Below are positions 1,322 through 21,012 of a DNA stretch of 64,000 bases, in pieces. Every line of letters begins with the position of its first letter. Position 1 is the first letter of the stretch. Position numbers and translations under genes: made by a program. The notes beneath the pieces were generated by a model. That model saw only the letters and a list, made by a program, of their open reading frames with translations. It made no database searches and was not told the DNA's origin. Source of the stretch: Promethearchaeota archaeon (GTDB lineage: Archaea > Asgardarchaeota > Lokiarchaeia > Sigyniarchaeales > SOKP01); NCBI GenBank assembly GCA_008080735.1, contig SHMW01000016.1, forward strand, positions 1-64,000. The letters are read 5' to 3'.

Positions 1322-2116
1322 ATGAAAGTAATTGAAATCGAAGGTATTGGGCCAGAATATGAAAAAGATTTAAATAATGCAGGAATTGAAGATGTAGAGC
1401 AATTGGCTGAATTAAGTTGGGAAGAGCTTGAAGAATTAGCTGAAAAATCAGGAATTTCGTTAAAGCGTTTAGACAAATGGGCAGAACACGCAGATTTAAT
1501 TAGTCTCTTAGGAATCGGTCCGGAATATGCGGAAGCTTTAAATAAAGTGGGGATTGATTCAGTTAAAGAACTCGCATATCGAAATCCTGAAAATACACTT
1601 AAAAAGATTGAAGAATTAGATAAAGACCAGCCAGATGTGATACGTAAGCTCCCTACGAGTGATCAAATTTCTGATTGGATCGACCAAGCAAAGGAGAAGT
1701 ATGGAATTATCGACGAAAAGAAGGGTTCAGGTACCAAACTTATAAAGATCGAAGGGATTGGTCCAGAATACGCGAAAGATCTTAAAGCAGCAGGATACGA
1801 AGATTGTGAACAATTGTTGCCACTCTCGAAAGATGATCTTGAAGAATTGGCCGAAGAGACGGGTATATCAGAGAAATTATTGGACAAATGGCAAGAGCAC
1901 GCCGATCTTATGAGAATCAAGGGCGTTGGTCCAGAATATGCGGATGCGTTAAACAAAATTGGAATAGATTCTGTAAAAGAATTAGCTCAAAGGAACCCTG
2001 AAAACACTCTTAAAAGGATCGAGGAATTGGATAAGGATGAACCAGATGTGTTGCGCAGGCTACCCGTATTAGATGAAATTAAAGATTGGATTAAGCAAGC
2101 AGAAGATATTAAATAA
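1322..2116 (+). CDS. DUF4332-type helix-hairpin-helix protein with two internal repeats
   Basis: Repeated IEGIGPEY...W.EHADL...G.GPEYA.ALNK.GIDSVKELA.RNPEN unit occurs twice. Confidence 0.8.
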   Translation: MKVIEIEGIGPEYEKDLNNAGIEDVEQLAELSWEELEELAEKSGISLKRLDKWAEHADLISLLGIGPEYAEALNKVGIDSVKELAYRNPENTLKKIEELDKDQPDVIRKLPTSDQISDWIDQAKEKYGIIDEKKGSGTKLIKIEGIGPEYAKDLKAAGYEDCEQLLPLSKDDLEELAEETGISEKLLDKWQEHADLMRIKGVGPEYADALNKIGIDSVKELAQRNPENTLKRIEELDKDEPDVLRRLPVLDEIKDWIKQAEDIK

Positions 2117-2369
2117 GTGATATAATTTTCTATCTCATATTTTTTCTTTTTATTTTTAAAATAAGACTTTCAATACGGATAATTTATTTTTTGTATTTTA
2201 GTAACATCGAGAATTTGTATTTTTCATTGATCAAATCATATAATCAATTATTTAGTGTGGGTTGATAAGAAACTTTTGAAATTTAGACTAAAGATTTATA
2301 ATTAAATTTTTGTTCTTATTAAACTAAGTTTTTCGAAATTTAATGTAAACAAGATTGAGGTATAATTAT

Positions 2370-3164
2370 ATGAAAGTTATAGAGATTGAAGGAGTAGGAG
2401 AGAAGTACGCAAAAGTCTTAGAAGAAAATGGCGTTGATGAAGTGGAAGATTTTGTAACATTAAGCTATGAAGATTTAGAAAACCTAGCTGATAAGACAGA
2501 TCTATCACTAAAGCTCTTGGATAAATGGCAAGAGCACGCAGATTTAATGGTTTTGCTTAAAGGCGTTGGACCAGAATACGCTGACGCTCTAAATAAGATC
2601 GGAATTGACAGTGTTAGAGAATTTGCGTATAGAAATCCCGAAAATACCCTTAAAAAACTAGAACAACTAGATAAAGAAGAACCGGACGTCTTGCGCCAAT
2701 TACCAACCTTAGATGATTTAAAAGACTGGATTGAACAAGCGAAAGAGAAGTACAATGTAGATAAAAAAACAAAAGGTCCTGGAACAAAATTAATAAAAAT
2801 CGAAGGTATTGGGGATGAATATGCGAAAGATTTGAAAAAAGCTGGTATCGAGACGTGTGAGCAATTGGTCCCATTATCTAAAAATGATCTTAAGGAATTG
2901 GCGGACAAGACGGGCATTTCCCCCAAGCGCCTTGATAAATGGCAGGAGCACGCCGACCTAATGAGAATTAAAGGTGTAGGTTCTGAATATGCCGACCTTC
3001 TTAACCAGATTGGAATTGATTCGGTGAAAGAACTTGCACAACGAAATCCGGAAAATACTTTAAAAAGGGTAGAAGAATTTGATAAGGAGAAACCAGATGT
3101 CGTAAGACGATTGCCAGTGTTAGACGAGATTAAAGATTGGATTGCCCAAGCAAAAGATTTATAA
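2370..3164 (+). CDS. DUF4332-type HhH protein, tandem paralog of 1322..2116
   Basis: Same two-repeat architecture; MKVIEIEG start matches the paralog; GAGGT SD upstream of ATG 2370. Confidence 0.8.
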   Translation: MKVIEIEGVGEKYAKVLEENGVDEVEDFVTLSYEDLENLADKTDLSLKLLDKWQEHADLMVLLKGVGPEYADALNKIGIDSVREFAYRNPENTLKKLEQLDKEEPDVLRQLPTLDDLKDWIEQAKEKYNVDKKTKGPGTKLIKIEGIGDEYAKDLKKAGIETCEQLVPLSKNDLKELADKTGISPKRLDKWQEHADLMRIKGVGSEYADLLNQIGIDSVKELAQRNPENTLKRVEEFDKEKPDVVRRLPVLDEIKDWIAQAKDL

Positions 3165-3343
3165 ATGAATTTTTAAGCAGTTTTACCATATTCTTTTTTA
3201 TTTTTTTTCATATTATTCCAAATTGATGAGTAGATCCAATTTTTTTTTATTATTATAACTCAAAGGTTTTTAGACAAAAAATTAATAATTCTAATTTCAT
3301 TTTCCGATATAGTTAGAAGCTACTAAAAAGGAGAATCAAGAAA

Positions 3344-4126
3344 ATGAAACATATGTGTGGTGTTGATATCGGGTCATTGGCCACCAAAATAGTATTACTT
3401 GACGATAATAAGCAGATGGTTGACTGGCGTTTAAATAGGTCAACATATGATTTCAAACGAGTAGGTCGTAATCTATTTCAAGATATCTTAAAAAAAAACG
3501 AATTATCTCGCTCTGATGTATTTGTAATGTCAACGGGTTATGGAAGAAATACGATAGATTTTGCTGATGATAGAATTACAGAAATCACAGCTCATGCACG
3601 AGGAGCTCAATTTTTTTATCCCGATGCTCATTCTGTCATCGACATAGGAGGACAGGATAGTAAAGCCATTGTTATGTCCTCAAAAACCGGAAATGTCATT
3701 GATTTCCAGATGAACGATAAATGCGCTGCGGGAACGGGCAGATTTTTAGAAGTAATGGCCAACGCATTAGAAATACCTTTAGATGATATGGGGTCTATCG
3801 CATTAAAATCAAATAAGCCAGCTTCAATTAGTTCTACTTGTACCGTATTTGCAGAAAGCGAAGTGATCAGTTTATTTGCACAAGGAACATCAAAAGAGAA
3901 TATAGCCGCAGGGATTCACAAATCAATTGCAAAAAGAGTAGCAGGAATGGCAAAACGAATTGGTGTAGAACCTCTCTTAGTATTCTGTGGCGGTGTTGCG
4001 AAAAACATCGCAGTCAAAAAATATCTTGAAGAAGAACTGGAATTTGAGATCGTACGACCTGAATACCCACAACTCACAGGCGCTCTTGGCGCAGCTCTAT
4101 TGGCTTTGGATAAAAATTCAAACTAA
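3344..4126 (+). CDS. ATP-dependent activator of 2-hydroxyacyl-CoA dehydratase (HgdC/BadF, ASKHA family)
   Basis: GVDIGS, STGYGR, EITAHARG, IDIGGQDSK, MNDKCAAGTGRFLE, SSTCTVFAESE, GGVAKN. Confidence 0.93.
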   Translation: MKHMCGVDIGSLATKIVLLDDNKQMVDWRLNRSTYDFKRVGRNLFQDILKKNELSRSDVFVMSTGYGRNTIDFADDRITEITAHARGAQFFYPDAHSVIDIGGQDSKAIVMSSKTGNVIDFQMNDKCAAGTGRFLEVMANALEIPLDDMGSIALKSNKPASISSTCTVFAESEVISLFAQGTSKENIAAGIHKSIAKRVAGMAKRIGVEPLLVFCGGVAKNIAVKKYLEEELEFEIVRPEYPQLTGALGAALLALDKNSN

Positions 4127-4452
4127 AAATTATGATTAGTTTTCTACTTATTTTTCATTAATTATTTCTTAGAGTCTCTTATCAAAGATTTTATCTTAAA
4201 TTTTAGATTTATTTCTCATCTACTGGAAATTTAGGATTAATAATTCTAATAATAATCGAAGATCGATAAGATATAATCAAGTTAAAAATTTAAGATGTAA
4301 GCTTTTTTAATAGCAAAAAATTAGAATCCCTATCTATTCCATTTATAAACCCTTTACCCCTTTCGGTTCAGTAGATTGAGGATTTAGAAAGGAAAATAGA
4401 TCCAGATAGAAAAGAAATATTCAAAAATTATAGAAATAGCAAACAGTTTATC

Positions 4453-7182
4453 ATGAATGAGGAAAATATAAACGGTTCTCTGGAACAACTAGCGTCTCCA
4501 TGGCAAGTTTCCCATAAAACAGTAATTGAACAACTCGACGTGGATCCAAATAAAGGGTTGAATTCAAGTGAGATTGAACCGAGAAGAGAGAAGTTTGGGT
4601 CTAACAAGATGAAAAAGAAAGAGAGAAAAGGCGCCTTGGAAATATTGATAAATCAAATAAAAAGTATCATTATAATTCTACTTATCGCCGCCACAGTGAT
4701 ATCATTGATTTTTGGTGAAATTATAGAAGCAATCGCGATCTCTGCTGTTATAATTATTAATACCTTAATCGGCTTTTTCACAGAATTAAAGGCAGCCAGA
4801 TCGATGGAAGCGTTATATGAATTAACACAAATTAAAAGTAAGGTTCTACGAGAAGGAGAAGTGAGGAAGATCTCTGCTGATGAGTTGGTGGTGGGAGATA
4901 TTATAGTTCAAGATGCCGGAGATCTAGTGCCCGCAGATTCACGAATCATTGATTCTTCAAAGCTACAAGCCAATGAGTCTTCTTTGACCGGGGAATCAAT
5001 TCCAGTTAATAAACAGAATAAAAAAATTGAAGATGAAAAAACTCCATTGGCAGAAAGGTATAATATGCTATATAAAGGTACAGCAATCACCAGGGGATCT
5101 GCCGAAGCAATTGTAGTTGCAGTGGGAGAGGATACGGAATTGGGGCGAATCACCTCTCTGGTTGAAGAAGCAGGTGAGGGAGAAACTCCTCTCACAGAAA
5201 GATTACAAAAGCTGGGAAGGAATCTCTTTTGGGTCACATTAGTAGTTGCGGTAGTTGTGGGAATAAGTGGATTAATAAGAAATCCGGAAAACTTATTCTT
5301 AATGATTGAGTCCGCTTTAGCTTTAGCAGTGGCAACCGTTCCAGAGGGTCTGCCCGTTGTCGCTACAATCTCTTTAGCACGCGGAATGTGGAGAATGGCA
5401 GATAAAAATGCACTTATAAATCGCCTATCTGCAGTCGAAACCTTGGGATCCACGAATATCATTTGTACCGATAAGACAGGGACGCTCACAGAAAATAGGA
5501 TGACCGCAATTAAAATATATACAAATAAGGAGATTATTGAAATTACCGGAAAGGGCTTTGAAATTAGTGGAAAATTTGTAATCGACAATGAAGAAATAAA
5601 TCCAGAAGAACTCACTACTCTTTCTAGATTGATTAAAGTCTGTTTGCTATGTAATAATGCAAATTATAAAAAAGGAGAGGGAGATTCTGATGATGAATTT
5701 GTTGGAGAGCCTTTAGAAGTTGCATTATTGATAATGGGATTGAAATCGGGCTTTAGCCGTAAGCAGCTTTTAGAGCAATATCCGGAAGTAAGAGAAGAAT
5801 CTTTTGATCCTAGTATTAACAAAATGGCAACTATTAACAAATTTAATGGTAAATATTTAGTCTCGGTGAAGGGTGCACCAGAAGATGTCTTAGAGGTGTG
5901 TACATCATATTGGACCGAAAACGGAGTAAAATCTCTCACCCAAGAAATTAAAAATAAAATTCTACAAAATAACCAATCGTTTGCCGAAAAAGGATTAAGA
6001 ATAATAGCAACAGCTACCAAAGAAGCTCAGAATCAAGATATTGAGCCATATTCAGATTTAGAATTTTTGGGACTTGTTGCACTTTTAGACCCAGCTCGGA
6101 AAGAAGTCAAACCCGCAATTGAAATTTGTAAAAATGCGGGCATAAACATCATTATGATTACAGGAGATCAAGCGCCTACTGCACAATATATCGGAGAAGA
6201 ACTCGGTTTAATTTCTCACGATGGCTCTAATGTTAGGGAAGGTAAGGTGATTAAGGTGTATGATGAATTATCAAGAGAGGACATTGAGGAAATTGAGAAA
6301 GGCACGATCTTTGCCAGAGTTGAACCCGAACAAAAATTAAATCTTATTGATATTTTTCAAAAAGAAGGGAATATCGTTGCCATGACAGGAGATGGAGTGA
6401 ACGATGCCCCTGCACTTCGTAAAGCCAATATAGGTGTTGCAATGGGGCAGAGAGGGACGCAAGTAGCTCAGGAGGCAGCAGATATGATTTTGGAGGATGA
6501 TAATTTCGAGACGATCACCACCGCAGTAGAGGAGGGTCGAATTATTACAGATAATATTAAGAATTTTGTAATATATTTGCTCTCGTGTAACATTAGCGAA
6601 ATTTTACTAGTATTTTTCGCATCTCTATTGGGGATGCCATTGCCGATTCTCCCATTGCAAATATTATTTTTGAATGTGGTCACGGATATTTTTCCCGCAT
6701 TTGCCCTAACCGCAGGAGAAGGTACACCAGGAATTATGAAACGAGCCCCTCGGGATCCAGATAAACCAATAATCACAAAAAATCATTGGGTCACGATTGC
6801 GATATATGGGTTTGGGCTTACCATGACCGTTTTAGGAACGTATGCGATTGCCCTTTATATATTAGGCTTTGATGAAGCTCGCTCGGTCACGATTTCATTC
6901 TTGACTCTGGCTTTTGTTCAACTATGGCATGTGCTTAATATGCGAAATTTTAGGTCAAGTTTTTTCAAGAATGAAATTACAGACAATAGTTATATTTGGG
7001 GAGCGATTGTCTTAAGCGCTACCATAATCCTACTGGCGACATATCTTCCAGGGCTTTCATTTATCTTAAAAACTGTGGATCCTCAAATTGATGGTTGGTT
7101 CTTGATTTTGGGAATGAGTTCGATTCCCTTAATTTTAGGTCAAATTTGGAAGTCATTCAATAATGAAATTTCACTTTTTTAG
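4453..7182 (+). CDS. Cation-transporting P-type ATPase (type IIA, Ca2+-like)
   Basis: TGES, PEGLP, DKTGT phosphorylation site, KGAPE, MITGD, GDGVNDAPAL, 10-TM pattern. Confidence 0.95.
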   Translation: MNEENINGSLEQLASPWQVSHKTVIEQLDVDPNKGLNSSEIEPRREKFGSNKMKKKERKGALEILINQIKSIIIILLIAATVISLIFGEIIEAIAISAVIIINTLIGFFTELKAARSMEALYELTQIKSKVLREGEVRKISADELVVGDIIVQDAGDLVPADSRIIDSSKLQANESSLTGESIPVNKQNKKIEDEKTPLAERYNMLYKGTAITRGSAEAIVVAVGEDTELGRITSLVEEAGEGETPLTERLQKLGRNLFWVTLVVAVVVGISGLIRNPENLFLMIESALALAVATVPEGLPVVATISLARGMWRMADKNALINRLSAVETLGSTNIICTDKTGTLTENRMTAIKIYTNKEIIEITGKGFEISGKFVIDNEEINPEELTTLSRLIKVCLLCNNANYKKGEGDSDDEFVGEPLEVALLIMGLKSGFSRKQLLEQYPEVREESFDPSINKMATINKFNGKYLVSVKGAPEDVLEVCTSYWTENGVKSLTQEIKNKILQNNQSFAEKGLRIIATATKEAQNQDIEPYSDLEFLGLVALLDPARKEVKPAIEICKNAGINIIMITGDQAPTAQYIGEELGLISHDGSNVREGKVIKVYDELSREDIEEIEKGTIFARVEPEQKLNLIDIFQKEGNIVAMTGDGVNDAPALRKANIGVAMGQRGTQVAQEAADMILEDDNFETITTAVEEGRIITDNIKNFVIYLLSCNISEILLVFFASLLGMPLPILPLQILFLNVVTDIFPAFALTAGEGTPGIMKRAPRDPDKPIITKNHWVTIAIYGFGLTMTVLGTYAIALYILGFDEARSVTISFLTLAFVQLWHVLNMRNFRSSFFKNEITDNSYIWGAIVLSATIILLATYLPGLSFILKTVDPQIDGWFLILGMSSIPLILGQIWKSFNNEISLF

Positions 7183-7324
7183 AGTGTTTTCAATTCCTAA
7201 CTATCATATTATTGAATGTATAGGAAAAAGAAAGCAAATCCGACGACTTTTTGGGTAAAGAGTAAATTTTATCAACAATATACTCTTGTAATTAATAATA
7301 TTAATTTAGCTAAAGAATTTAATT

Positions 7325-8461
7325 ATGCACTCCTTGGATCTTCTATCGGAATTCACTTCGTTTATTGAGCAGAAGAAAGCGCAAGGTAAGAAGATAATCG
7401 CGTTTCTTTCCCACGACAACGTGCCAGAAGAGCTAATTGATGCAGCGGGTTTTGTTCCATTGCGCTTGGTTTTTGCTGGGGACGATTCGCTAATGAATGC
7501 GAGCCATAACTTTTTACCTCCTTCGACTTGTAGTTTTGCCCAAAGTTGTATTGGATTCTTTTCTCTGAAACCGAACATGTATAGATTCTTGGATTATGTA
7601 GATTATATTTTATTGTCTAATCATTGCGTATCCGATATAGTAGTTTCAGAAATTATTTCTCAAAATTTTAATGTTGAAAGGTTGGATTTTTATGTCTCCT
7701 ATACTCGAAATAATAATGCATTAAAGTATTATAAAATCGAATTAGAACAATTTCGAAAAGAACTTGAAAAAATTAAGGGAGAAAAAATTCCCGACGAAAA
7801 AATCCGTGAAAGTATTATAAAGTACAACGAATTTAAAAAAACACTCGCAAAAGTAAAAGATTTGCAAATCAAGGGATCGGAAAAATTAAAAATATATCAA
7901 AAAGCAATGCTATTCGGACCACAAATTCAATCTGAACTGGAAGAATTTATTGCTCAAACCAAAGAAAAAAACGATTATATGGGTAATAATGCGAAAAATG
8001 TAATTCTTACGGGGTGTTCGATCTTCATTGGGGACTATCTGATGGATTTAATAGAAGAAAGCGGGGGGAATATCGTATTTTTTGATAGTTGGGTGGGATA
8101 TAATTATTACACTCAAACTTTTTCCCAAGAAATTTTAGATAAAATTAGCGATCCCATCGATCTATTAGTCAAACGATTTGAAAATAATGTTTATGGCGAT
8201 CACACTGTTCCTAATTCTCTCGATGAAAGGATTGCGCTGATTGAGAATTATGTCAATGAATTCCAAAAGGAGCATGGAATTAAATTGGGCGTAATTAATC
8301 ACGTGATTAAATTTTGCGACCACTTCGCTTTATTTCAATCGTTATTTAAAGATAAACTGCAAGATATAGGTATTCAAGTGTTAAATTTGGAAAGAGATTA
8401 TTCACGATCGATAAGAGGTCAGCTTTCCACTAGAATTGAAGCATTTATGGAGATGTTATGA
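7325..8461 (+). CDS. 2-hydroxyacyl-CoA dehydratase / benzoyl-CoA reductase family subunit (HgdB-like)
   Basis: VPEELIDAAG, STCSF, NHC, KFCD, C-terminal QLSTRIEAFMEM. Confidence 0.85.
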   Translation: MHSLDLLSEFTSFIEQKKAQGKKIIAFLSHDNVPEELIDAAGFVPLRLVFAGDDSLMNASHNFLPPSTCSFAQSCIGFFSLKPNMYRFLDYVDYILLSNHCVSDIVVSEIISQNFNVERLDFYVSYTRNNNALKYYKIELEQFRKELEKIKGEKIPDEKIRESIIKYNEFKKTLAKVKDLQIKGSEKLKIYQKAMLFGPQIQSELEEFIAQTKEKNDYMGNNAKNVILTGCSIFIGDYLMDLIEESGGNIVFFDSWVGYNYYTQTFSQEILDKISDPIDLLVKRFENNVYGDHTVPNSLDERIALIENYVNEFQKEHGIKLGVINHVIKFCDHFALFQSLFKDKLQDIGIQVLNLERDYSRSIRGQLSTRIEAFMEML

Positions 8462-8465
8462 GAAA

Positions 8466-9806
8466 ATGAGTATATTTACTGATGATATTATAAGTTTTAA
8501 GTCGGTCCTAAGGTTGGCTTATAATTTCTTAGCGGGACGAGAATATCTAAAGAAGAAGAAATTTAAAGACAGAAAAAAACTAATTTCTGTCGCACTTCCC
8601 TTTTCCGACTTGATATATTCAGCTGGCGCCGTACCAGTGTTCCCGATACGGATGGAGAAATTCAAGGTGAATGCCTATTTGAACGCACTCAATTCTGCAA
8701 AAAGTTTAATTGGGTGGGATCTCACTACAAGATTACTTAGTTTTGTGAGACAATTTGATGTTTTAAAAATCTTAGATACGGTTATGGATGATGTAATCCA
8801 TACGATAAACGAAAAATATAACGAATTATATGAATTGGGAATCGACAACGGTATTCCCAGCGATTTTTGCTATGGAATCACCGGACTAACTGGAATGTTC
8901 ATTTCAAAAGGTAAAAATGTTGATGCTAATCTCAATTTTACTATACGATGTTCGGCGTGGAACAAATATTCTGAATCTCTGAAGAATTATGTGCCCAGGC
9001 AGATTTGGGTGGATGTCCCTCCAAGAGAATATGGAAATGCCATTGAGTTACTTACAGACAATATAAGTAAGGCCATAACCGATTTAGAAGATGTGACGGG
9101 AAATCTAGTTACCGATAATAGTCTAAAAAAGCAATTTAGGATTGGAAATCAAATTAAGAGATTTTATAAGACGGTTTTATTTGAATGCAGTGCCTCTGAT
9201 TTCTATCCGTGCAACCCTGCTACATTTGCTGAGATTCTCGCATTATTAGGATTAAGTTTCCAAGATTACAATTCCAATGCTCAACGATATTTAGAAAATT
9301 TTAGCTATCTAGTGAAAGAAATGAGAGAGCGGATTGACAAGGGAATTGGAATGGATGTTTCTGATATGCCTCGGGTTATGATAACTCCTGTATTTGGAGG
9401 ATGGGAGCCTGAAACACATGAAATTCTTTATAATTTAGGTGCAAGGACAATTTACGCTGACTGGGAGTTACTTAAAATGCTAGAGGAGATACCAGTTGGA
9501 AGAAATTCGAATCCAGTCGAAGATTATGCTCGTTTTGTAATGAATGCGACAATGCGAGGGATAGGATGCGATCAGGAGACATTGACGGACAGTTATATTG
9601 AAACCGCTAAAGATTTAAACGTAGACGGCTTAGTCTTCAACCAAGTATTTGGCTGCCATAGCATATCAAATTGTTATTCTCAATTACGTCGCAAAATTCG
9701 AAAGAAGCTCGAGATCCCAACAACAGTTATTAATTTTAACAAAATCGGAGAAAACGTAGAGCAAGTAAGAACTCGCCTCGGCGCATTTATGGAAATGTTT
9801 AGATAG
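8466..9806 (+). CDS. 2-hydroxyacyl-CoA dehydratase family subunit (HgdA-like, divergent)
   Basis: FCYG, IRCS, VDVP, DGLVF...GCHS, C-terminal QVRTRLGAFMEM; ATG 8466 follows the upstream stop by 4 nt. Confidence 0.8.
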   Translation: MSIFTDDIISFKSVLRLAYNFLAGREYLKKKKFKDRKKLISVALPFSDLIYSAGAVPVFPIRMEKFKVNAYLNALNSAKSLIGWDLTTRLLSFVRQFDVLKILDTVMDDVIHTINEKYNELYELGIDNGIPSDFCYGITGLTGMFISKGKNVDANLNFTIRCSAWNKYSESLKNYVPRQIWVDVPPREYGNAIELLTDNISKAITDLEDVTGNLVTDNSLKKQFRIGNQIKRFYKTVLFECSASDFYPCNPATFAEILALLGLSFQDYNSNAQRYLENFSYLVKEMRERIDKGIGMDVSDMPRVMITPVFGGWEPETHEILYNLGARTIYADWELLKMLEEIPVGRNSNPVEDYARFVMNATMRGIGCDQETLTDSYIETAKDLNVDGLVFNQVFGCHSISNCYSQLRRKIRKKLEIPTTVINFNKIGENVEQVRTRLGAFMEMFR

Positions 9807-9948
9807 CATTTTTATCGAAAATTTAAGAAAATATTTTAGCAATATTCATTCTCATGGTTTTTAAAAGAGGTCTTTTTAAAATATTCCACAAAATTTATTA
9901 TATCGGTAATTATTTGTAAATCCAAATACCATAATATAAGAGCTAATT

Positions 9949-11010
9949 ATGAGGGCATACCCATTTGCAATAATATATTTAGTTCCATTTTCCGTGATAT
10001 TAGGTTATCTTCTTGGAGAGTTTTTTGGAGGACATTTTGGAGGATTTTTAACATTTTTGACCCCTATTTTTGTCTTTATTGTAATTCCGCTTCTCGATGA
10101 GGTGCTTGGATACACCTATAAAAATCCAGATCCGCAAAAAGAAAAGGAACTGGGGAAGAAAAAATCATTTCGAGTAATAACTTGGTTCGCAATGCCGATA
10201 ACCATAGGATTAGTTATATGGGGCGCATACATCGTATCTCTCGAGAATCTTTCCATTATTGAATTTATAGGACTCACGATCTCTATTGGAATTTCCAGTG
10301 GAGTCTTAGGGATTAATACAGCACATGAAATGCAGCATCGGGTAAACAATAAGCTTGAACCCTTTCTTGCGAGATTGACTTTATTGCCATCTTTATATGT
10401 TCACTGGGGATTAGAACACGTAACAGGGCATCATCGTTGGGTCGCAACGCCCGAAGACCCCGCCACAGCCAGATTAAATCAATCATATTATAGTTTCTGG
10501 CCTCAAACGGTATTTGGCAGTTTCAAATCGGCCTGGAAATTCGAAAAGTCGAAGCTCACTCGTCAAAAAAAGCGTTTAATTTTTTTTCGAAACAGGGTGC
10601 TTCATTATGTGTTTTACGAAATTGCATTCATACTATTTATAGCATATTTCTTTGGCTTTTTTGCCCTCCTCTTCTTTATACTTCAAAGTCTTATAGCTAT
10701 ATCCCTATTAGAGATAATCAACTATATTGAACATTATGGGTTGTTAAGAAAAAAAGACTCCGAAGGTAATTATGAGAGAGTGAAGCCACATCATTCATGG
10801 AATTCGAGTAAACGATTGACGAACTGGTTTTTATTCAATCTCCAAAGACATTCAGACCATCATTATAAACCAGGAAGGCGATATCAACTTCTAAGACATT
10901 TTGATGAGGCACCCCAGCTACCGACTGGATACGCGGGAATGGTCTTAATTGCCTTGATTCCGCCTTTATTCAAACGGATTATAAATCCACGGATTCCAAC
11001 TAAAAGATAA
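9949..11010 (+). CDS. alkB: Alkane 1-monooxygenase (membrane di-iron AlkB family)
   Basis: All AlkB histidine boxes: HEMQH, EHVTGHH, NYIEHYGL, LQRHSDHH; also ATPEDPATAR, HSWN, PQLPTGY. Confidence 0.93.
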   Translation: MRAYPFAIIYLVPFSVILGYLLGEFFGGHFGGFLTFLTPIFVFIVIPLLDEVLGYTYKNPDPQKEKELGKKKSFRVITWFAMPITIGLVIWGAYIVSLENLSIIEFIGLTISIGISSGVLGINTAHEMQHRVNNKLEPFLARLTLLPSLYVHWGLEHVTGHHRWVATPEDPATARLNQSYYSFWPQTVFGSFKSAWKFEKSKLTRQKKRLIFFRNRVLHYVFYEIAFILFIAYFFGFFALLFFILQSLIAISLLEIINYIEHYGLLRKKDSEGNYERVKPHHSWNSSKRLTNWFLFNLQRHSDHHYKPGRRYQLLRHFDEAPQLPTGYAGMVLIALIPPLFKRIINPRIPTKR

Positions 11011-11104
11011 TTGATGGGAATATATTTCATTCATAAATTATAAAAATCATATTTTTAGTCTCAAACTGAACATAATTCAGTAACTCATATTGGTGAGGTA
11101 AGAA

Positions 11105-12169
11105 GTGAGAGAAAATGATTGGTTGTTATATGGGGCATATGGCTATACTGGGAAGTTAATTATCGACGAGGCTCTTAGGAAGGGACACACCCCCGTTCTT
11201 GCGGGCAGAAGTCCAAATAAACTCAAACCATTAGCAGAAGAAAAGCGATTAGATTATAGAATTTTTGATTTATCAGACCAAACAGAAATAAATGACAATC
11301 TCAAAGAGTTTGAAACCATTTTTAATGCTGCAGGGCCATTTGAAAAGACAAGTTTGCCGATAGTGAAAGGGTGTTTAGAAACGAGGACGAATTATCTTGA
11401 TATCACGGGAGAGATAGGTGTTTTCGAACAAAATTTTGCCTTTAATAAATCCGCGAAAGAAAAAGAAATCGCCCTTATTTCTGGAGTTGGATTTGATGTA
11501 GTACCAAGCGATTGTTTAGCTAAATATGTGAGTGAAAAAATACCGAATGCAACGCATTTAGAACTAGGAATTGCAGGAATGAGTGGTTTCAGTAGGGGGA
11601 CTCTTAAGACCTTTTTAAAAAATCTTCCACATGGAACAATTATCAGACAAAATAGGAAACTAGTTGCTCTGCCGTTAGGTACAAATCCAAAAAAAATTCA
11701 ATTTATGGATAAGAAACGGTTTTGTTATCCAATCTCGTGGGGTGATATCTCTACCGCATATAGATCGACGGATATAGACAATATTCGTGTTTATATGGCA
11801 CTTCCACAATATTTTAAATATTTCACTGGATCCTTGGAGCCATTATTAAAAAAAGTTTTTAAACTGGATTCGATACAAAAACTCGTAAGTACTTGGATCG
11901 AGAAGAATGTGGAAGGTCCCACTGAGAAGACTCGCCAGACAGCTCATTCATATTTATGGGCTAAAGCACATAACGAGGAAGGAAAAGTTTTTGAAGCGTG
12001 GCTTAAAACAATAGAACCATACCGACTTACCGCAATCTCTGCTATAAAATGCATAGAAAAACTGAGAACACGAAAAACAGAAATCAAAGGAACATTGACC
12101 CCTTCACAAGCATTTGGAAAGGATTTTATCTTGGAATTTCCCGATACCAAAATAGCAGATTCTTTATAG
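11105..12169 (+). CDS. Saccharopine-dehydrogenase-like NAD(P)-binding oxidoreductase (trans-acting enoyl reductase family)
   Basis: YGAYGYTG, AGR, NAAGPF, YLDITGE, GFDVVPSD. Confidence 0.85.
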   Translation: MRENDWLLYGAYGYTGKLIIDEALRKGHTPVLAGRSPNKLKPLAEEKRLDYRIFDLSDQTEINDNLKEFETIFNAAGPFEKTSLPIVKGCLETRTNYLDITGEIGVFEQNFAFNKSAKEKEIALISGVGFDVVPSDCLAKYVSEKIPNATHLELGIAGMSGFSRGTLKTFLKNLPHGTIIRQNRKLVALPLGTNPKKIQFMDKKRFCYPISWGDISTAYRSTDIDNIRVYMALPQYFKYFTGSLEPLLKKVFKLDSIQKLVSTWIEKNVEGPTEKTRQTAHSYLWAKAHNEEGKVFEAWLKTIEPYRLTAISAIKCIEKLRTRKTEIKGTLTPSQAFGKDFILEFPDTKIADSL

Positions 12170-12186
12170 CATTTATACCCATATCG

Positions 12187-13053
12187 CTAATTAAGAGCAG
12201 TATATATCATTTTTCTTTTCTCAAATCCCACGATTGAGTCATATCCGATTTTTTTTATTAAAGAAAGGACTCTCTCAAAGCCATACCCCACATCCTTAGG
12301 ATTATGTGCATCTGAACTCAATACAATTGGGATATTATACTCAAATAACTTCTCAACGACTTTTTTACATGGATATAATTTTTTATAGCAATTCCTTAGA
12401 CCTTGTGTGTTGATTTCCACCGCGACACCTCTTTCTTTAATATAAGGTATGAGATTACCTATCTCTTTTAAAATGAAATTATTTAAATTTGAGTTTTCCG
12501 AACCGTTTTTAATGTAATCTAAATGTCCGATTATATCCAGATCGAAGTTTTCTGACAAGAGCATCTTGTTTACATTATCAAAATATTGGGAATAGACACG
12601 TTTTGATCCATATTTCTTAATTAAATGCTTAAGATCTCCATTTTTAAGACTCCAATACCTATTCTTTAATTTTACAGTATGGACACTCCCAATAAGATAA
12701 TCAATACTCCCATTCAATTCTTCGATTCTTGGAAAATATTTATCTTCTTTTCCAGCTAAATAGCCTACTTCAAAACCTATTCTCACATTTATGTTTTGTT
12801 TATGTTTTTGCCGTAATAATTCCGCTTCTGCTAAGTAGGAGTTAACTTCCTCGTTTTTCATGGCAAATTGTTTTAGCCGGAGCGTATTGTCGGATTTTGA
12901 ATAATCTATAGGAAAATGATCGCTTAATCCTATTGTTCCTATAGATTTTTTATATGCGTTATAAATATATTCATCTAAATTTCCTGTGGCGTGATTACAT
13001 CGGTAATTATGTGTGTGAAAATCACCCACTTTTTTCAATATCGAACTCATCAT
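12187..13053 (-). CDS. Histidinol-phosphatase HisJ/HisK-family PHP hydrolase
   Basis: DFHTH, CNHATG, SDH, GSVH, GHLD, EINT, SSDAH. Confidence 0.85.
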   Translation of the reverse strand: MMSSILKKVGDFHTHNYRCNHATGNLDEYIYNAYKKSIGTIGLSDHFPIDYSKSDNTLRLKQFAMKNEEVNSYLAEAELLRQKHKQNINVRIGFEVGYLAGKEDKYFPRIEELNGSIDYLIGSVHTVKLKNRYWSLKNGDLKHLIKKYGSKRVYSQYFDNVNKMLLSENFDLDIIGHLDYIKNGSENSNLNNFILKEIGNLIPYIKERGVAVEINTQGLRNCYKKLYPCKKVVEKLFEYNIPIVLSSDAHNPKDVGYGFERVLSLIKKIGYDSIVGFEKRKMIYTALN

Positions 13054-13231
13054 GTAAAATATAGGTGAATAGAGATTTATTTTTAATCTCCATAATCTAT
13101 ATAGTAGAAATGAGATGATAATTGATTCAATATTTTATAAAAATTGCGTTTCTTTTCTGACAAAAATACTATTGACTTTGAAATGAGAATTGTGAGAGTT
13201 AGGTCAAGTATGATAAAAAAGATTGTTGATT

Positions 13232-13825
13232 TTACTTAAAGAAATCGCTGGGCTTAAGCAAATGGGGTTCTTCCTCCTCTTCTTGCTCTTTTTTAGCTTT
13301 TTCGTGTGGGTCTACCCATTCAGCCTCTTGCTGTTGACCTGCTGAAGCTTGTGCTTGGGATGATGAGGCTGGCTTTTTTAATCCCGGAGCATTTAAATCC
13401 GGAGAGATCTCCTCGGGTTGTTGTCCCACAGACACTTCTTGTGAGGATGCTGCAGCAGCTCTGGGCATCAAACCCCCTCCGCTTAATACTTGTAATTCAC
13501 TCATAATTTTTTCTAAATTCATAGTGGATAAGGAACGATTCATAGTGTCCATGATTTCCCTCAATGATTTCGATGTTTCTCTTAGTCCTTGAGGATTTAT
13601 TCCCGTTAATAAAGAATCTAAATTAGTATTAATATCCTCATTCAATTTCCCTAGAGAATCAAGGACAGTTTGCCAATGTTTATTCATTTGGCTTTCAATA
13701 GCTTTTACCATTTTAATGGTCTCATTCATAAAATTAACATGAGCTTCATACCGCTCTTCATCCTTAGCTCGCAGTTCGGAAATAAGCATAATTAATTTTC
13801 TTAAAGACTCTTTTTCTTCACTCAT
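13232..13825 (-). CDS. Hypothetical protein: coiled coil, low-complexity linker, short C-terminal motif
   Basis: 197-aa ORF with heptad-like N-terminal half, A/S/Q/P-rich linker and HLLKPSDFFK end. Confidence 0.7.
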   Translation of the reverse strand: MSEEKESLRKLIMLISELRAKDEERYEAHVNFMNETIKMVKAIESQMNKHWQTVLDSLGKLNEDINTNLDSLLTGINPQGLRETSKSLREIMDTMNRSLSTMNLEKIMSELQVLSGGGLMPRAAAASSQEVSVGQQPEEISPDLNAPGLKKPASSSQAQASAGQQQEAEWVDPHEKAKKEQEEEEEPHLLKPSDFFK

Positions 13826-13994
13826 TTGGTAATCAACTTTTTCTTAAATTATTTTTCTATTTTATAATAACAATCAATATTAATATATCTTGGTCTTTTA
13901 TACTTCCCACCTTTTCCATTTATATGCAAAAACAAGATTTATAATTTTTTATAAAACTGAATTATATATTTTTGTCCATATTTACACTTTTGTA

Positions 13995-16346: not shown

Positions 16347-16378
16347 TTTTTTTCTTTATTCTCAAATTTCTATTTTGA

Positions 16379-17101
16379 GCATTCGATAGGATGCGAGAGC
16401 TCCAAGTAAATGTAGTCCCAGTAGTAGAGGATGGAAAAATATTGGGGGTGTGCACTATCCAAGATTGTTGGAGTTATATTCCTGATCAAATTGTAGATGA
16501 AGTTGGTCTTATACCTACTAAGAATACCAAAGTAGTGGAATTCTGGTTTGCGAGTGTCGCATCAATTCTTGCGTTTGTGTTGGGAGTTATTCTTCCTATG
16601 GCGGGTATCTTTGGGTTTTTTCAAGCTGACGAATCTGAACTCCTAAGTCTATTTAATATAGCTGATATTCGTGGTGGGATGGTCTCTTTTTATTTGTTTG
16701 AGGCGAGAGGTAATAATTTTTTAATTGCATTAGCAGATATCGTAGCCAATAATGGTGGAATCTGGATATTCGTGATAATTTGTAGTTTTCTTGTCTTAAT
16801 TTTTGGAATTTTAGGGATGTTCTCAATTATCTACAATTCTTTTATTGATATTCGGTACGTTCAGACAGGAAAGTTAATTCGATATATTATTCCCGCGCTC
16901 TTTGTTTTTGCTTTAATTTTAGAGTGGATATTTTATTCAATAGCATTGGCTTTTTCCGTGCCTTCTATTAATTATACTGTAGATGTAATAGGACTTATTA
17001 TGTCTATTTTATCAATGAGCTTGATGCTTTTGGCAATATTCCGTGATTACCTATTTCGCGGCAGCGAAGTCCAAAAACAAGGATTGCTCGAGGAGGTATA
17101 A
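16379..17101 (+). pseudogene. 5'-truncated CBS-domain membrane protein (may be expressed from ATG 16391)
   Basis: Frame reads AFDRMRELQVNVVPVVEDGKILGVCTIQD, the distal part of a CBS domain, directly after an in-frame TGA at 16376; about four TM helices follow. Confidence 0.55.
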
Positions 17102-17103
17102 AA

Positions 17104-18606: not shown

Positions 18607-18762
18607 TTATAAAATTTCTTTTTTTAATTTATATTCATTCTCTTTTTAATTCCCTATTTGCTGGAAATAGAATTTGAATTCATAAGCAAATATTTTTAAA
18701 TTTAAGACTAATAATAGATGTTATAGTATTTTATTTTGAGAAATAATCGTATTAGAGGGAAT

Positions 18763-20253
18763 ATGCAAATGAATAATGAACAAACTAAATGGAAAAATCA
18801 TTCTAATTTATTTGAGATTAATACGTGGCCTTGGCTCACAGAATTATCAGAGCATTACGATAGAAAAATAATTCTTGATAATATTCCAGAAGAGATATTT
18901 GAAGGATATCTTCAATATTTCGATGTTGTGTGGTTAATGGGTGTATGGGAAAGGAGTCCAGCGAGTAAACGTATTGCTCAAGAGGAACCCGACCTTCAAA
19001 AAGCATATCAAGAAGCGTTAGACCATGTAAAAGAGGAGGATATAATTGGGTCTCCTTACGCGGTTTATTATTATCATGTTGATAAGAATTTGGGAGGGAA
19101 GGAATCGTTATTAAAGTTTCGAGAACAATTACTAGCCAGAAACATTAAACTTATATTAGACTATGTACCTAATCATGTAGCGCGTGACCATATGTGGACT
19201 TTAGAAAAATCAGACATTTTCATCGAGGGAACGTTCGAGGATATGAATTCCCAACCAGATAATTATTTTTCTTCCTACGGAAGAGTATTAGCGCATGGTA
19301 AGGATCCCTATTTCCTCCCTTGGACTGATACCGTCCAAATAAATGCATTCTCTTCCGAAGCGCGAACGAAAGCAATTAACACCTTAAAATCTATTGCAGA
19401 TATTTGTGATGGAGTACGCTGTGATATGGCTATGTTGGTTACGAACAAAATATTTAAAAAAACTTGGGGAGATAAAGCGGGAGATCCTCCAGAGACAGAA
19501 TTTTGGGAACGAGTAATTCCGAGTGTTCGAGAAAACCATCCTGATTTTAAATTTATTGGAGAGGTATATTGGGATATGGAATATGATTTAATGCAACAAG
19601 GATTTGATTATTGCTATGACAAACGACTCTATGATAGGATTTTGAAGAAGAATGTAGAAGAAATTACAGCTCACCTGAATGCAGATTATAATTATCAGAA
19701 AAAATTGGTAAGATTTTTGGAAAATCATGATGAAATCAGGGTCGCTAAAGAATTAGGGATCAATCTTTCAAAAGCCGCAGCTATGGTCATTTTAACCTTA
19801 CCGGGGATGGGATTAATATACGAGGGACAGATGAAAGGGTATACACGAAAGGTGCCCGTCCAACTAAAAAGAAGAGGAGAAGAGGAGACAGACTTAGATT
19901 TGCTTACATTTTACAGAAATCTGTTAATCCTAATTCAACAAAATCAGATAAAAACTAAATATTGGGAAAAATGTACTTCTAAAGGGCAGGAGAACAACTC
20001 GGGACAAAAGATAATCTCACATCATTGGTGGGATGATCAAAATCATTTTCTTATTGTGGTGAATTTTGATGATTCAGAGACACAAACCCACATTTCGATA
20101 CCTTCATTAGACTATAACACAGATCGATTATCTTTCTATAATATTTCTAATGAAAACAAATTAGTATATCAAGCGTCTGAGATAAAGGAGACTGGATTGA
20201 AAGTTGAGTTGGAAGCTTGGAAAGGTATTATTTATGAAATAAGTACTGCTTGA
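18763..20253 (+). CDS. Alpha-amylase family (GH13) glycoside hydrolase
   Basis: GSPYAV, LDYVPNH, DGVRCDMAM nucleophile, GEVYW acid/base, FLENHDE; start 18763 or 18769. Confidence 0.9.
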   Translation: MQMNNEQTKWKNHSNLFEINTWPWLTELSEHYDRKIILDNIPEEIFEGYLQYFDVVWLMGVWERSPASKRIAQEEPDLQKAYQEALDHVKEEDIIGSPYAVYYYHVDKNLGGKESLLKFREQLLARNIKLILDYVPNHVARDHMWTLEKSDIFIEGTFEDMNSQPDNYFSSYGRVLAHGKDPYFLPWTDTVQINAFSSEARTKAINTLKSIADICDGVRCDMAMLVTNKIFKKTWGDKAGDPPETEFWERVIPSVRENHPDFKFIGEVYWDMEYDLMQQGFDYCYDKRLYDRILKKNVEEITAHLNADYNYQKKLVRFLENHDEIRVAKELGINLSKAAAMVILTLPGMGLIYEGQMKGYTRKVPVQLKRRGEEETDLDLLTFYRNLLILIQQNQIKTKYWEKCTSKGQENNSGQKIISHHWWDDQNHFLIVVNFDDSETQTHISIPSLDYNTDRLSFYNISNENKLVYQASEIKETGLKVELEAWKGIIYEISTA

Positions 20254-20259
20254 TACGAA

Positions 20260-21012
20260 ATGATGAAAATAGAAAAGAATTCGGAAATCGCTGAAATTTT
20301 CCATAATTATTTAGATGAAGTCAATTACGAGGGACTATTAAGTGTTGCAAATTTCTCCGAAGTCTACAATAGTGTAATGGATGAGCAAAAACAATATTTA
20401 GAAAGTATTTGTGGTGTAAAGTTTAACAATTATGTAGATTTTGGTTCAATTATTTCACTTGGTATTGCATATCATCCAGAAACGATAGAATCTATCAATA
20501 TTAAAGAGGAAAGTGGATACAATAAGGAATTATGGAATCAATATGGATATGAGTATTCTCATCTAAACAAAATGCTAAAAGAGATTAGCGAAAAAATAGC
20601 TAAATTATATAATGGAATAGCAATTCCTCCAACAACCGAAACGCCTTCCAAAGAGATTAGAAATGTAAAGGATTTTTTTCCAAACACTTTATCTCATCGT
20701 GCTGTCGCAGAGAATGCAGGTCTCGGCTGGAGAGGAAAAAATGAACTATTAATCACTTACGAATATGGACCAGCTATACGTTTTGTATCAATATTAGTCA
20801 GTCTAAAGTTTATTGAAGGAAAAAGAATCGATTCACAATGTGGAGAGTGCAATGCGTGTTTAGAAATATGTCCAATTCTCAGAGAAAAATCAAATCTTAA
20901 GGATTATAGAGAAAATTGCAGATTATACCTTAATTCCTTAGGATTGGTTCATGATGTATGTGGTAAATGTATAAAAGCTTGTTTTAAAGAAATTATTTCA
21001 AGAAAAAGATAA
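20260..21012 (+). CDS. Epoxyqueuosine-reductase/reductive-dehalogenase-like Fe-S protein
   Basis: SHRAVAENAGLGWRGKNELLI..YGP, CGECNACLEICP, CGKCIKAC. Confidence 0.75.
   Translation: MMKIEKNSEIAEIFHNYLDEVNYEGLLSVANFSEVYNSVMDEQKQYLESICGVKFNNYVDFGSIISLGIAYHPETIESINIKEESGYNKELWNQYGYEYSHLNKMLKEISEKIAKLYNGIAIPPTTETPSKEIRNVKDFFPNTLSHRAVAENAGLGWRGKNELLITYEYGPAIRFVSILVSLKFIEGKRIDSQCGECNACLEICPILREKSNLKDYRENCRLYLNSLGLVHDVCGKCIKACFKEIISRKR

What the first reader, a model, noticed from the sequence alone, without database searches (positions are those of the whole stretch)
3344..12169. O2-dependent AlkB embedded behind an O2-sensitive radical dehydratase system: candidate new alkyl-chain pathway
Seen: co-oriented HgdC-type activator, (P-type ATPase), HgdB, HgdA, alkB and an enoyl-reductase-like NAD(P) oxidoreductase. 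Established: HgdABC enzymes use very O2-labile Fe-S/ATP electron transfer, whereas AlkB needs O2 and a rubredoxin/ferredoxin donor, and no such donor gene is in the window. Inference: either an oxic/anoxic-interface route for long alkyl or isoprenoid chains (hydroxylate, dehydrate, reduce), or a recent alkB-reductase insertion into a dehydratase locus.
Basis: partly seen in the sequence, partly recalled or inferred. Interest (0 to 1): 0.72.

Follow-up and report, generated by a model that had tools for sequence, protein, structure and literature searches.

The report
AlkB inserted beside conserved Hgd-type operon
The genes are real, but the oxygen-needing alkane hydroxylase gene sits beside the oxygen-sensitive radical-enzyme operon only because it landed in a variable slot in a few closely related Lokiarchaeia, so there is no good evidence for a new combined pathway.

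Summary
All six co-oriented genes exist at the stated coordinates. They are an HgdC-type activase, a P-type ATPase, two HGD-D subunits, a true AlkB with every diiron histidine motif, and a Sacchrp_dh-type NAD(P) oxidoreductase.

Comparative genomics argues against a joint pathway:
- **Distribution.** HgdC-HGDD1-HGDD2 is a conserved operon, with HGDD2 found in 45 of 61 relatives and 33 of 36 genomes of the family. Its ancestral 3' end abuts a convergent gene, orf197. alkB occurs in only 8 of 61.
- **Adjacency.** alkB lies next to the Hgd operon only in the window and two congeners.
- **Other contexts.** In the other five alkB-bearing relatives it sits elsewhere, once inside the RNA polymerase operon.
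- **Variable slot.** The same slot holds a glycyl-radical enzyme pair in one relative, an MFS transporter in another, and nothing in five others.
- **Own promoter.** alkB carries a conserved TATA-like element that is also present at its other loci.

The genome has two stand-alone rubredoxins and no terminal oxidase. The pathway reading is not.

The parts
3344..4126 (+). HgdC-type ATP-dependent activase. It is the first gene of the conserved Hgd-type operon.
   Evidence: PF01869 at E 4e-66. TIGR00241 at 277 bits against a cut-off of 125. Orthologues at 75-85% identity lie directly upstream of HGDD1 in 8 of 10 relatives' loci.
4453..7182 (+). P-type IIA (Ca-type) cation ATPase. It interrupts HgdC and HGDD1 only in this genome and is not part of the operon.
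   Evidence: Pfam E1-E2_ATPase, Cation_ATPase_N and Cation_ATPase_C. TIGR01522 at 634 bits is below its cut-off, while the general P-type model passes. In G003 it lies upstream of HgdC, and it is absent from the locus in the other relatives.
7325..8461 (+). HGD-D subunit 1 (beta-like, 378 aa), a [4Fe-4S]-type subunit.
   Evidence: PF06050 at E 3e-55. PDB matches are DCCP 6eno at 1.4e-20 and HadC 3o3m_B at 6.6e-19. C69, C101 and C331 align with the cluster cysteines of HadC and DCCP, and the extra DCCP cysteines are missing. C69, C101, C231 and C331 are invariant in 12 orthologues.
8436..9806 (+). HGD-D subunit 2 (alpha-like, 456 aa). It overlaps subunit 1 by 26 nt.
   Evidence: PF06050 at E 9e-34. 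PDB matches are weak, at E 1e-4. Orthologues at 57-92% identity occur in 33 of 36 genomes of the family. C145, C172, C259 and C407 are invariant.
9807..9948 (+). Intergenic spacer of 142 nt between HGDD2 and alkB. It holds three T5 tracts and a conserved TATA-like element, TTTTTAAAATAT, at 9873-9884.
   Evidence: Sequence and T-runs. The 12-mer is invariant in the window, G006 and G003 while the rest of the spacer has diverged. TATAAAATAT lies upstream of alkB at its other loci in G004 and G012. The 10-mer occurs 6 times in the window on both strands.
9949..11010 (+). alkB, an integral-membrane diiron alkane 1-monooxygenase family protein (353 aa).
   Evidence: PF00487. 8f6t_A at E 3.7e-89 over residues 11-349. 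All histidine motifs are invariant across 14 homologues. It is the only FA_desaturase-family gene in the genome.
11105..12169 (+). Sacchrp_dh_NADP / NAD_binding_10 oxidoreductase (354 aa) of unknown substrate. It starts 94 nt after alkB and has a GGTGAGGT ribosome-binding site.
   Evidence: Pfam. No NCBIfam hit. Homologues are named saccharopine dehydrogenase family or 'trans-acting enoyl reductase'. It is adjacent to alkB only in the window, G006 and G003.
12187..13053 (-). PHP-domain HisJ-like phosphoesterase, a second paralogue that is convergent with alkB/SDH and travels with alkB in this genus.
   Evidence: PF02811. NF005596 at 203 bits against a cut-off of 202. A 64-69% identical copy lies next to alkB in G006, G003 and G004, and G004's is at a different locus. 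The alkB-less congeners G005 and G001 have only a 34% identical paralogue.
13232..13825 (-). orf197, the conserved convergent flank that marks the ancestral 3' end of the Hgd-type locus.
   Evidence: No Pfam or NCBIfam hit. It lies 44-200 nt after HGDD2 in G002, G005, G016, G021 and G024.
18736..20253 (+). orf505 (alpha-amylase family), the second conserved flank of the ancestral locus.
   Evidence: PF00128. It lies next to orf197 in 7 relatives' loci.

Best explanation
Two unrelated units lie side by side.

Unit 1 is hgdC-HGDD1-HGDD2, a conserved operon of this Lokiarchaeia family. It encodes an ATP-driven activase and a heterodimer with one [4Fe-4S]-type cysteine triad per subunit. By inference it performs an oxygen-sensitive one-electron radical reaction on an unknown substrate. 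It is not an orthologue of any characterised 2-hydroxyacyl-CoA dehydratase, benzoyl-CoA reductase or double-cubane reductase.

Unit 2 is an alkB-SDH-(PHP) block that landed in the variable slot between the 3' end of that operon and the convergent gene orf197, in one subclade of one genus. alkB has its own conserved promoter-like element and is most likely transcribed independently. By inference it works like other AlkB enzymes: a membrane diiron centre, reduced by one of the stand-alone rubredoxins encoded elsewhere, uses O2 to hydroxylate an alkyl chain during transient micro-oxic exposure. Any link between alkB and the neighbouring oxidoreductase is lineage-specific and unproven.

Shown: gene identities, synteny, phyletic patterns and the conserved upstream element. 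Inferred: transcription units, electron donor, substrate and physiological role.
For: - **Phyletic patterns.** HGDD2 orthologues occur in 45 of 61 relatives and 33 of 36 of the family. alkB occurs in 8 of 61.
- **Ancestral locus.** The arrangement is HgdC-HGDD1-HGDD2 followed by a convergent orf197 and then orf505. HGDD2 abuts orf197 (44-200 nt) in G002, G005, G016, G021 and G024.
- **Variable slot.** It holds alkB-SDH-PHP in the window, G006 and G003. It holds a PFL-like glycyl-radical enzyme plus radical-SAM activase in G004, and an MFS transporter in G012.
- **alkB elsewhere.** In G004 alkB is on another contig, next to PHP and a photolyase. In G012 it lies between rpoA'' and L7Ae/NusA. In G043, G053 and G051 the contexts are unrelated.
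- **Other lineages.** None of 80 alkB loci from other lineages has an HgdC, HGD-D or SDH homologue within 10 kb.
- **Promoter-like element.** An invariant TTTTTAAAATAT lies upstream of alkB in three genomes. TATAAAATAT lies upstream of alkB at the two other loci. The 10-mer is rare.
- **Gene spacing.** HGDD1 and HGDD2 overlap by 26 nt, whereas alkB follows after 142 nt that include T5 tracts.
- **Electron donors and oxidases.** Rubredoxins are encoded on contigs C78, C32 and C19. No COX1 or cytochrome bd was found.
- **Tree.** Asgard AlkBs form one clade with SH-aLRT 99.
Against: - The six genes are co-oriented with short gaps, and the arrangement is kept in three species. By matching contig lengths, it is probably also kept in two further metagenome contigs, so read-through transcription cannot be excluded.
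- T5 tracts are common in DNA of 35% G+C and are weak terminator evidence.
- SDH is enriched in alkB-bearing genomes: 6 of 8 against 8 of 53. These genomes are not phylogenetically independent, but the pattern hints at some alkB-SDH link.
- No expression data could be consulted.
- MAG incompleteness (93% complete, 7% contamination) limits statements of absence.
Confidence: 0.8

Rival explanations
1. The genes form a real combined pathway in this subclade. AlkB hydroxylates a long alkyl or isoprenoid chain when O2 is present, the HgdC-activated HGD-D enzyme dehydrates the activated hydroxy compound under anoxia, and the oxidoreductase reduces the resulting enoyl compound.
For: The genes are co-oriented with short gaps. 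The order HGDD1-HGDD2-alkB-SDH is conserved in the window, G006 and G003.
Against: - The operon is conserved without alkB in about 29 genomes of the family. alkB occurs without the orthologous operon in G043, G051 and G053, where the best hits are 38% identical or less, or absent.
- The slot carries unrelated cargo in G004 and G012.
- alkB has its own conserved upstream element.
- AlkB makes terminal alcohols, not the 2-hydroxyacyl-CoA substrates of this enzyme family (established knowledge). No CoA-transferase, CoA-ligase or alcohol/aldehyde dehydrogenase is among the neighbouring genes scanned (1322-20253).
Confidence: 0.06
2. alkB and the Sacchrp_dh-type oxidoreductase form a two-gene functional module that is independent of the Hgd operon. 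For example, the hydroxylase could be paired with an NAD(P)-dependent dehydrogenase or reductase acting on the same lipid or alkyl substrate.
For: - The two genes are adjacent and co-oriented, with a 94-nt gap and a ribosome-binding site before the oxidoreductase gene, in three genomes.
- The oxidoreductase is found in 6 of 8 alkB-bearing relatives against 8 of 53 without alkB.
Against: - In G004, G012 and G051 both genes exist but on different contigs.
- Orthologues at 55-62% identity occur in the alkB-less genomes G014, G017 and G009.
- None of 80 alkB loci in other lineages has such a neighbour.
- The genomes counted are related, so the enrichment is overstated.
Confidence: 0.25
3. The alkB here is a non-functional relic, or contamination from an aerobic bacterium binned into the MAG.
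For: The MAG has 7% estimated contamination. No terminal oxidase and no AlkT-type rubredoxin reductase domain were found.
Against: - alkB lies on a 64-kb window between genes that are syntenic with other Lokiarchaeia, and its G+C matches its neighbours.
- Its closest relatives are all Asgard sequences, forming one well-supported clade.
- The reading frame is intact and all metal-binding motifs are invariant at 53-81% overall identity.
Confidence: 0.02

Closest known systems
AlkB alkane 1-monooxygenase (Pseudomonas GPo1 AlkB; solved Fontimonas thermophila AlkB-AlkG, PDB 8f6t and 8sbb)
   Same: It aligns over its full length at E 3.7e-89, and all histidine motifs including NYxEHYG are present. 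Rubredoxins are available in the genome.
   Different: - There is no fused or adjacent rubredoxin, and no AlkT-type reductase domain was found.
- The host lacks terminal oxidases.
- It belongs to a clade shared with Desulfobacterota, Thermodesulfobacteriota and an anammox MAG rather than with classical aerobic degraders.
- Substrate and in vivo activity are unknown.
2-hydroxyacyl-CoA dehydratases (HgdABC of Acidaminococcus, HadBC-HadI of Clostridioides difficile, PDB 3o3m)
   Same: It has an HgdC/HadI-type activase plus two HGD-D subunits in one operon. The three cluster cysteines are conserved in the beta-like subunit.
   Different: - Similarity is only remote: HadC at E 7e-19 and 85 bits against an equivalog cut-off of 700, with the alpha-like subunit barely detectable.
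- No CoA-transferase or 2-hydroxyacid dehydrogenase is among the neighbouring genes scanned (1322-20253).
- The substrate is unknown.
Double-cubane cluster protein DCCP (PDB 6eno) and class I benzoyl-CoA reductases (BzdNO, MbdNO)
   Same: DCCP is the best NCBIfam and PDB match for subunit 1. All are ATP-dependent, activase-driven reductases of the same superfamily.
   Different: - The score is below half of the cut-off (156 of 350).
- The additional DCCP cysteines are replaced.
- It is a heterodimer of two distinct subunits rather than a homodimer.
- The benzoyl-CoA reductase matches are much weaker (E 2e-8).
Saccharopine dehydrogenase-like / 'trans-acting enoyl reductase' family (COG3268-type)
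   Same: It has the N-terminal Sacchrp_dh_NADP Rossmann domain and the family's typical length, and homologues carry these names.
   Different: No curated equivalog matches, and the only PDB match is marginal at E 1.5e-3. The enoyl-reductase function is a name transferred by annotation and was not tested.

Membership tests
AlkB alkane 1-monooxygenase family | Histidine motifs HExxH(K/R), EHxxGHH and LQRHSDHH, plus the AlkB-specific NYxEHYG(L/M) | tested here: met
   HEMQHR, EHVTGHH, NYIEHYGL and LQRHSDHH are present. H126, H130, H157, H161, H162, H262, H301, H304 and H305 are invariant in 14 homologues.
AlkB alkane 1-monooxygenase family | Full-length similarity to experimentally solved AlkB | tested here: met
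   8f6t_A at E 3.7e-89 and 302 bits over residues 11-349. 8sbb_A at E 5e-66.
AlkB alkane 1-monooxygenase family | Rubredoxin (AlkG) and rubredoxin reductase (AlkT) electron-transfer partners | tested here: inconclusive
   Two 46-aa rubredoxins and one ACAD-rubredoxin fusion lie on other contigs. There was no Rubredoxin_C hit, but six full-length Pyr_redox_2 flavoproteins are present. None is adjacent to alkB.
AlkB alkane 1-monooxygenase family | O2-dependent terminal hydroxylation of alkanes | not testable with these tools
   This needs an enzyme assay. The genome shows no COX1 or cytochrome bd, so O2 exposure would be transient.
2-hydroxyacyl-CoA dehydratase (HgdABC/HadBCI/FldBCI/Lcd) | HgdC-type ATP-dependent activase | tested here: met
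   TIGR00241 at 277 bits against a cut-off of 125.
2-hydroxyacyl-CoA dehydratase (HgdABC/HadBCI/FldBCI/Lcd) | Alpha/beta pair of HGD-D proteins with [4Fe-4S] cysteine ligands | tested here: met
   PF06050 matches both proteins. The cysteines are conserved.
2-hydroxyacyl-CoA dehydratase (HgdABC/HadBCI/FldBCI/Lcd) | Equivalog-level similarity to a characterised dehydratase | tested here: not met
   HadC scores 85 and 32 bits against a cut-off of 700. HadB scores 21 bits against a cut-off of 750.
2-hydroxyacyl-CoA dehydratase (HgdABC/HadBCI/FldBCI/Lcd) | Genomic association with a CoA-transferase and a 2-hydroxyacid dehydrogenase | tested here: not met
   The neighbouring genes are DUF4332 proteins, a VIT1 protein, a P-type ATPase, orf197 and an amylase-family protein. 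The same flanks are found in relatives.
Double-cubane cluster reductase (DCCP) | NF040772 equivalog score and the extra cysteines that bind the [8Fe-9S] cluster | tested here: not met
   Scores are 156 and 66 bits against a cut-off of 350. DCCP cysteines in the 'ETCIG' and 'NCAC' segments align to non-cysteine residues.
Conserved functional gene cluster (operon) HGD + alkB + SDH | Adjacency conserved across lineages that carry the genes | tested here: not met
   The genes are adjacent in 3 of 8 alkB-bearing genomes, all of one genus. They are apart in G004 and G012, which carry both. G043 and G053 have only distant HGD-D paralogues, and G051 has none at the threshold used.

The most novel reading that the evidence does not exclude
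In this subclade of one Lokiarchaeia genus, the insertion has been co-opted. Read-through from the Hgd-type operon would co-express an O2-dependent AlkB and a reductase with an O2-labile radical enzyme. That would give a temporally staged (oxic, then anoxic) route for functionalising and shortening long alkyl or isoprenoid chains.
Probability: 0.06. Interest if true: 0.75.

Novelty: new member of a known kind. Interest (0 to 1): 0.3.

Why it matters
A pathway coupling an oxygenase to an oxygen-labile radical dehydratase would have been a new biochemical logic for archaea living at redox interfaces. The evidence instead shows a gene-order accident, and it cautions against reading co-orientation as an operon. 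The same alkB even sits inside the RNA polymerase operon in a related genome.

Two things remain worth study:
- An intact, conserved AlkB clade is shared by Asgard archaea and anaerobic Desulfobacterota that lack aerobic respiration.
- A family-wide, uncharacterised HgdC-activated [4Fe-4S] enzyme has an unknown substrate.

Tried and rejected
Contexts of metagenome homologues such as P0004, P0005 and P0124 could therefore not be read, and their synteny is inferred only from matching contig lengths.
- **Literature searches** for alkB or alkane 1-monooxygenase together with Asgard, Lokiarchaeota or strict anaerobes found nothing on point. The 'alkB' in the Promethearchaeota permafrost preprint is listed there among DNA-repair enzymes, so it appears to be the unrelated repair gene.
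- **Shared promoter motif for alkB and the PHP gene.** A similar element lies upstream of PHP in the window, but it is not conserved in G006, G003 or G004. Rejected.
- **Recurring partner gene next to alkB in anaerobe-clade loci** (Thor-like Promethearchaeota, Thermodesulfobacteriota, Desulfatibacillum, Anammoxibacter, a deltaproteobacterial MAG). Only unrelated neighbours were found.
- **Compositional anomaly of the inserted block.** None was seen.
- **The bacterial promoter/terminator scanner** was not used, because the organism is an archaeon.
Full report
**Observation**

One search lists six + strand ORFs at the coordinates given. Searches identify them as follows.

| Coordinates | Identity | Evidence |
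|---|---|---|
| 3344-4126 | HgdC-type activase | PF01869; TIGR00241 at 277 bits, cut-off 125 |
| 4453-7182 | P-type IIA cation ATPase | Pfam and NCBIfam P-type models |
| 7325-8461 | HGD-D protein, 378 aa | PF06050 |
| 8436-9806 | HGD-D protein, 456 aa | PF06050; overlaps the previous gene by 26 nt |
| 9949-11010 | FA_desaturase-superfamily protein | PF00487 |
| 11105-12169 | Sacchrp_dh_NADP / NAD_binding_10 oxidoreductase | Pfam |

The desaturase-superfamily protein is a genuine AlkB. It aligns over residues 11-349 with the solved alkane 1-monooxygenase 8f6t (E 3.7e-89) and with 8sbb (E 5e-66). It carries HEMQHR, EHVTGHH, NYIEHYGL and LQRHSDHH. Those histidines are invariant across 14 homologues at 53-81% identity.

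- The HGD-D pair is only remotely related to any characterised enzyme. Its best equivalogs are double_cubane at 156 of 350 bits and HadC at 85 of 700 bits. PDB matches are DCCP at 1.4e-20 and HadC at 6.6e-19 for subunit 1, and about 1e-4 for subunit 2.
- 'Enoyl reductase' is only a name carried by some database homologues of the last gene.

**Is the neighbourhood conserved?**

Among 61 genomes (the window's own genome plus 60 relatives of the same class):
- alkB is found in 8.
- HGDD2 is found in 45, including 33 of 36 genomes of the family, at 57-92% identity.

I fetched the loci and located the window's proteins in them by tblastn. The recurrent arrangement is [DUF4332]-HgdC-HGDD1-HGDD2, then a convergent orf197, then orf505 (alpha-amylase family).

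In G002, G005, G016, G021 and G024, HGDD2 ends 44-200 nt from the end of orf197, so that is the ancestral 3' boundary of the operon.

Only the window and two congeners (G006 and G003) have alkB, the oxidoreductase and a reverse-strand PHP gene in that slot. Other relatives fill the same slot differently:
- G004 holds a PFL-like glycyl-radical enzyme with its radical-SAM activase.
- G012 holds a split MFS transporter.
- G020 and G008 have about 1.3-1.5 kb there, which I did not examine.

The slot is therefore a hotspot with unrelated cargo.

The P-type ATPase lies between HgdC and HGDD1 only in the window. In G003 it is upstream of HgdC, and elsewhere it is absent from the locus.

**Where alkB sits in the other genomes that have it**

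| Genome | Relation | Context of alkB |
|---|---|---|
| G004 | same genus | Another contig, convergent with the PHP paralogue and flanked by DUF169 and a photolyase. Its Hgd operon is elsewhere. |
| G012 | same family | Co-oriented between the RNA polymerase A'' gene and the L7Ae/L30e and NusA-KH genes |
| G043 | same order | Next to an M28 peptidase |
| G053 | same order | Between a small GTPase and a metallophosphoesterase |
| G051 | same order | Next to a GH2 glycosidase |

Eighty alkB loci from other lineages were also checked. They include a Thor-like Promethearchaeota MAG, Thermodesulfobacteriota, Desulfatibacillum alkenivorans and an anammox MAG. None has an HgdC, HGD-D or oxidoreductase homologue within 10 kb, and their immediate neighbours share no theme.

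**Transcription signals**

These are inferences from sequence.
- HGDD1 and HGDD2 overlap, whereas alkB follows after 142 nt that begin with T5 tracts. This is weak evidence in DNA of 35% G+C.
- A 12-nt block, TTTTTAAAATAT (9873-9884, 65-76 nt before the ATG), is invariant in the window, G006 and G003, while the rest of the spacer has diverged.
- TATAAAATAT occurs at a similar distance upstream of alkB at its different loci in G004 and G012.
- The 10-mer TWTAAAATAT occurs only 6 times on both strands of the 64-kb window. Its presence in a 100-nt stretch at two independent loci is therefore unlikely by chance, at roughly 0.005 each.

alkB thus appears to move with its own TATA-like promoter element.

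**What travels with alkB**

The PHP gene beside it is a second paralogue. A copy 64-69% identical lies next to alkB in G006, G003 and G004. The alkB-less congeners G005 and G001, and G012, have only a 34-36% identical PHP.

The oxidoreductase occurs in 14 of 61 genomes: 6 of the 8 with alkB and 8 of the 53 without. It is adjacent to alkB only in the three syntenic genomes. Orthologues at 55-62% identity exist in the alkB-less genomes G014, G017 and G009. An alkB-oxidoreductase module is possible but lineage-specific and unproven.

**Origin of alkB**

I built a quick maximum-likelihood tree of 56 sequences (LG+G4, SH-aLRT support), rooted on eight actinobacterial and proteobacterial AlkBs.
- All Asgard AlkBs fall in one clade with support 99.
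- That clade nests among sequences from Desulfobacterota, Thermodesulfobacteriota and an anammox MAG.
- The genus-level sequences, including G004's copy at the other locus, form a subclade with support 99.

alkB is therefore an old, patchily retained Asgard gene that has been relocated. It is not a recent import, and its G+C matches its surroundings.

The genome is 93% complete with 7% contamination.
- It has no match to COX1 or cytochrome bd subunit I.
- It has one photolyase.
- It has two stand-alone 46-aa rubredoxins, one beside a Zn-alcohol dehydrogenase and one beside an AMP-forming ligase, plus an acyl-CoA dehydrogenase-rubredoxin fusion.
- It has no AlkT-type Rubredoxin_C domain, but it has six full-length Pyr_redox_2 flavoproteins.
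- No rubredoxin motif occurs in the window.

Only 7 of the 80 alkB loci from other lineages, all from aerobic-type taxa, have a rubredoxin motif nearby. A missing adjacent donor is therefore not unusual.

**The Hgd-type enzyme**

Subunit 1 keeps C69, C101 and C331, which align with the cluster cysteines of HadC and DCCP. It lacks the additional DCCP cysteines.
- In subunit 1, C69, C101, C231 and C331 are invariant among orthologues.
- In subunit 2, C145, C172, C259 and C407 are invariant among orthologues.

Together with a bona fide activase, this supports an ATP-driven, [4Fe-4S]-based radical enzyme. That it is oxygen-labile follows from established knowledge of the family. It fails the equivalog tests for dehydratase, benzoyl-CoA reductase and DCCP, and it has no CoA-transferase or hydroxyacid dehydrogenase neighbour. 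Its substrate is unknown.

**Verdict**

The genes are real. The proposed hydroxylate-dehydrate-reduce pathway is not supported.

The chemistry also fits poorly. From established knowledge, AlkB yields terminal alcohols, whereas this enzyme family acts on 2-hydroxyacyl or aromatic CoA thioesters.

Remaining uncertainty comes from the lack of expression data and from the closed contig look-up tool. I found no paper on alkane-hydroxylase AlkB in Asgard archaea in the searchable library. That search was limited, and NCBI already annotates these proteins as alkane 1-monooxygenase.

My checks of its motifs agree.

Noticed in passing
L017:9937-11010 (G012 contig C3): In a related genus, alkB sits co-oriented inside the archaeal RNA polymerase operon, between the rpoA'' gene (11317-12513) and the L7Ae/L30e (9228-9587) and NusA-KH (8695-9180) genes. 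This is a striking case of a metabolic gene inserted into a core information-processing operon.
   Followed up: partly
L052:9951-13914 (G004 contig C49): The slot that holds alkB in the window holds a 991-aa PFL-like glycyl-radical enzyme and its radical-SAM activase in a congener.
   Followed up: partly
own genome, L003:1483-1623 (C78) and L004:86-226 (C32): There are two stand-alone 46-aa rubredoxins. One lies beside a Zn-dependent alcohol dehydrogenase and the other beside an AMP-forming acyl ligase. These are the enzyme types that would process an AlkB product further. The linkage was not tested.
   Followed up: no
own genome, L002:247-1653 (C19): A 468-aa acyl-CoA dehydrogenase has a C-terminal rubredoxin domain.
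   Followed up: no
window 9873-9884: The conserved TTTTTAAAATAT element upstream of alkB is also found as TATAAAATAT upstream of alkB at other loci in G004 and G012. It is a candidate archaeal TATA/BRE element that moves with the gene.
   Followed up: yes
L060 (G016), and G007, G019, G025, G026 and G031: Several relatives carry two copies of the alpha-like HGDD2 gene. The copies are tandem in G016, lie a few kb apart on one contig in G007, G019 and G026, and are further apart or on another contig in G025 and G031. This suggests diversification of the substrate-binding subunit.
   Followed up: no
P0020 versus L018 (G043): An AlkB labelled 'Candidatus Bathyarchaeota' in NCBI shows zero branch length to that of G043 in the tree. 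G043 belongs to the same order as the window's genome, so the public label is probably a binning or taxonomy error.
   Followed up: partly
window 20839-20874 (+): This is the only CxxCxxCxxxCP ferredoxin-type motif in the window. It lies in a 252-codon ORF about 10 kb downstream of alkB and was not characterised.
   Followed up: no
window 1322-2116 and 2355-3164: Two tandem paralogous DUF4332/HhH proteins precede HgdC. A single copy sits directly upstream of HgdC in G020 and G008.
   Followed up: partly
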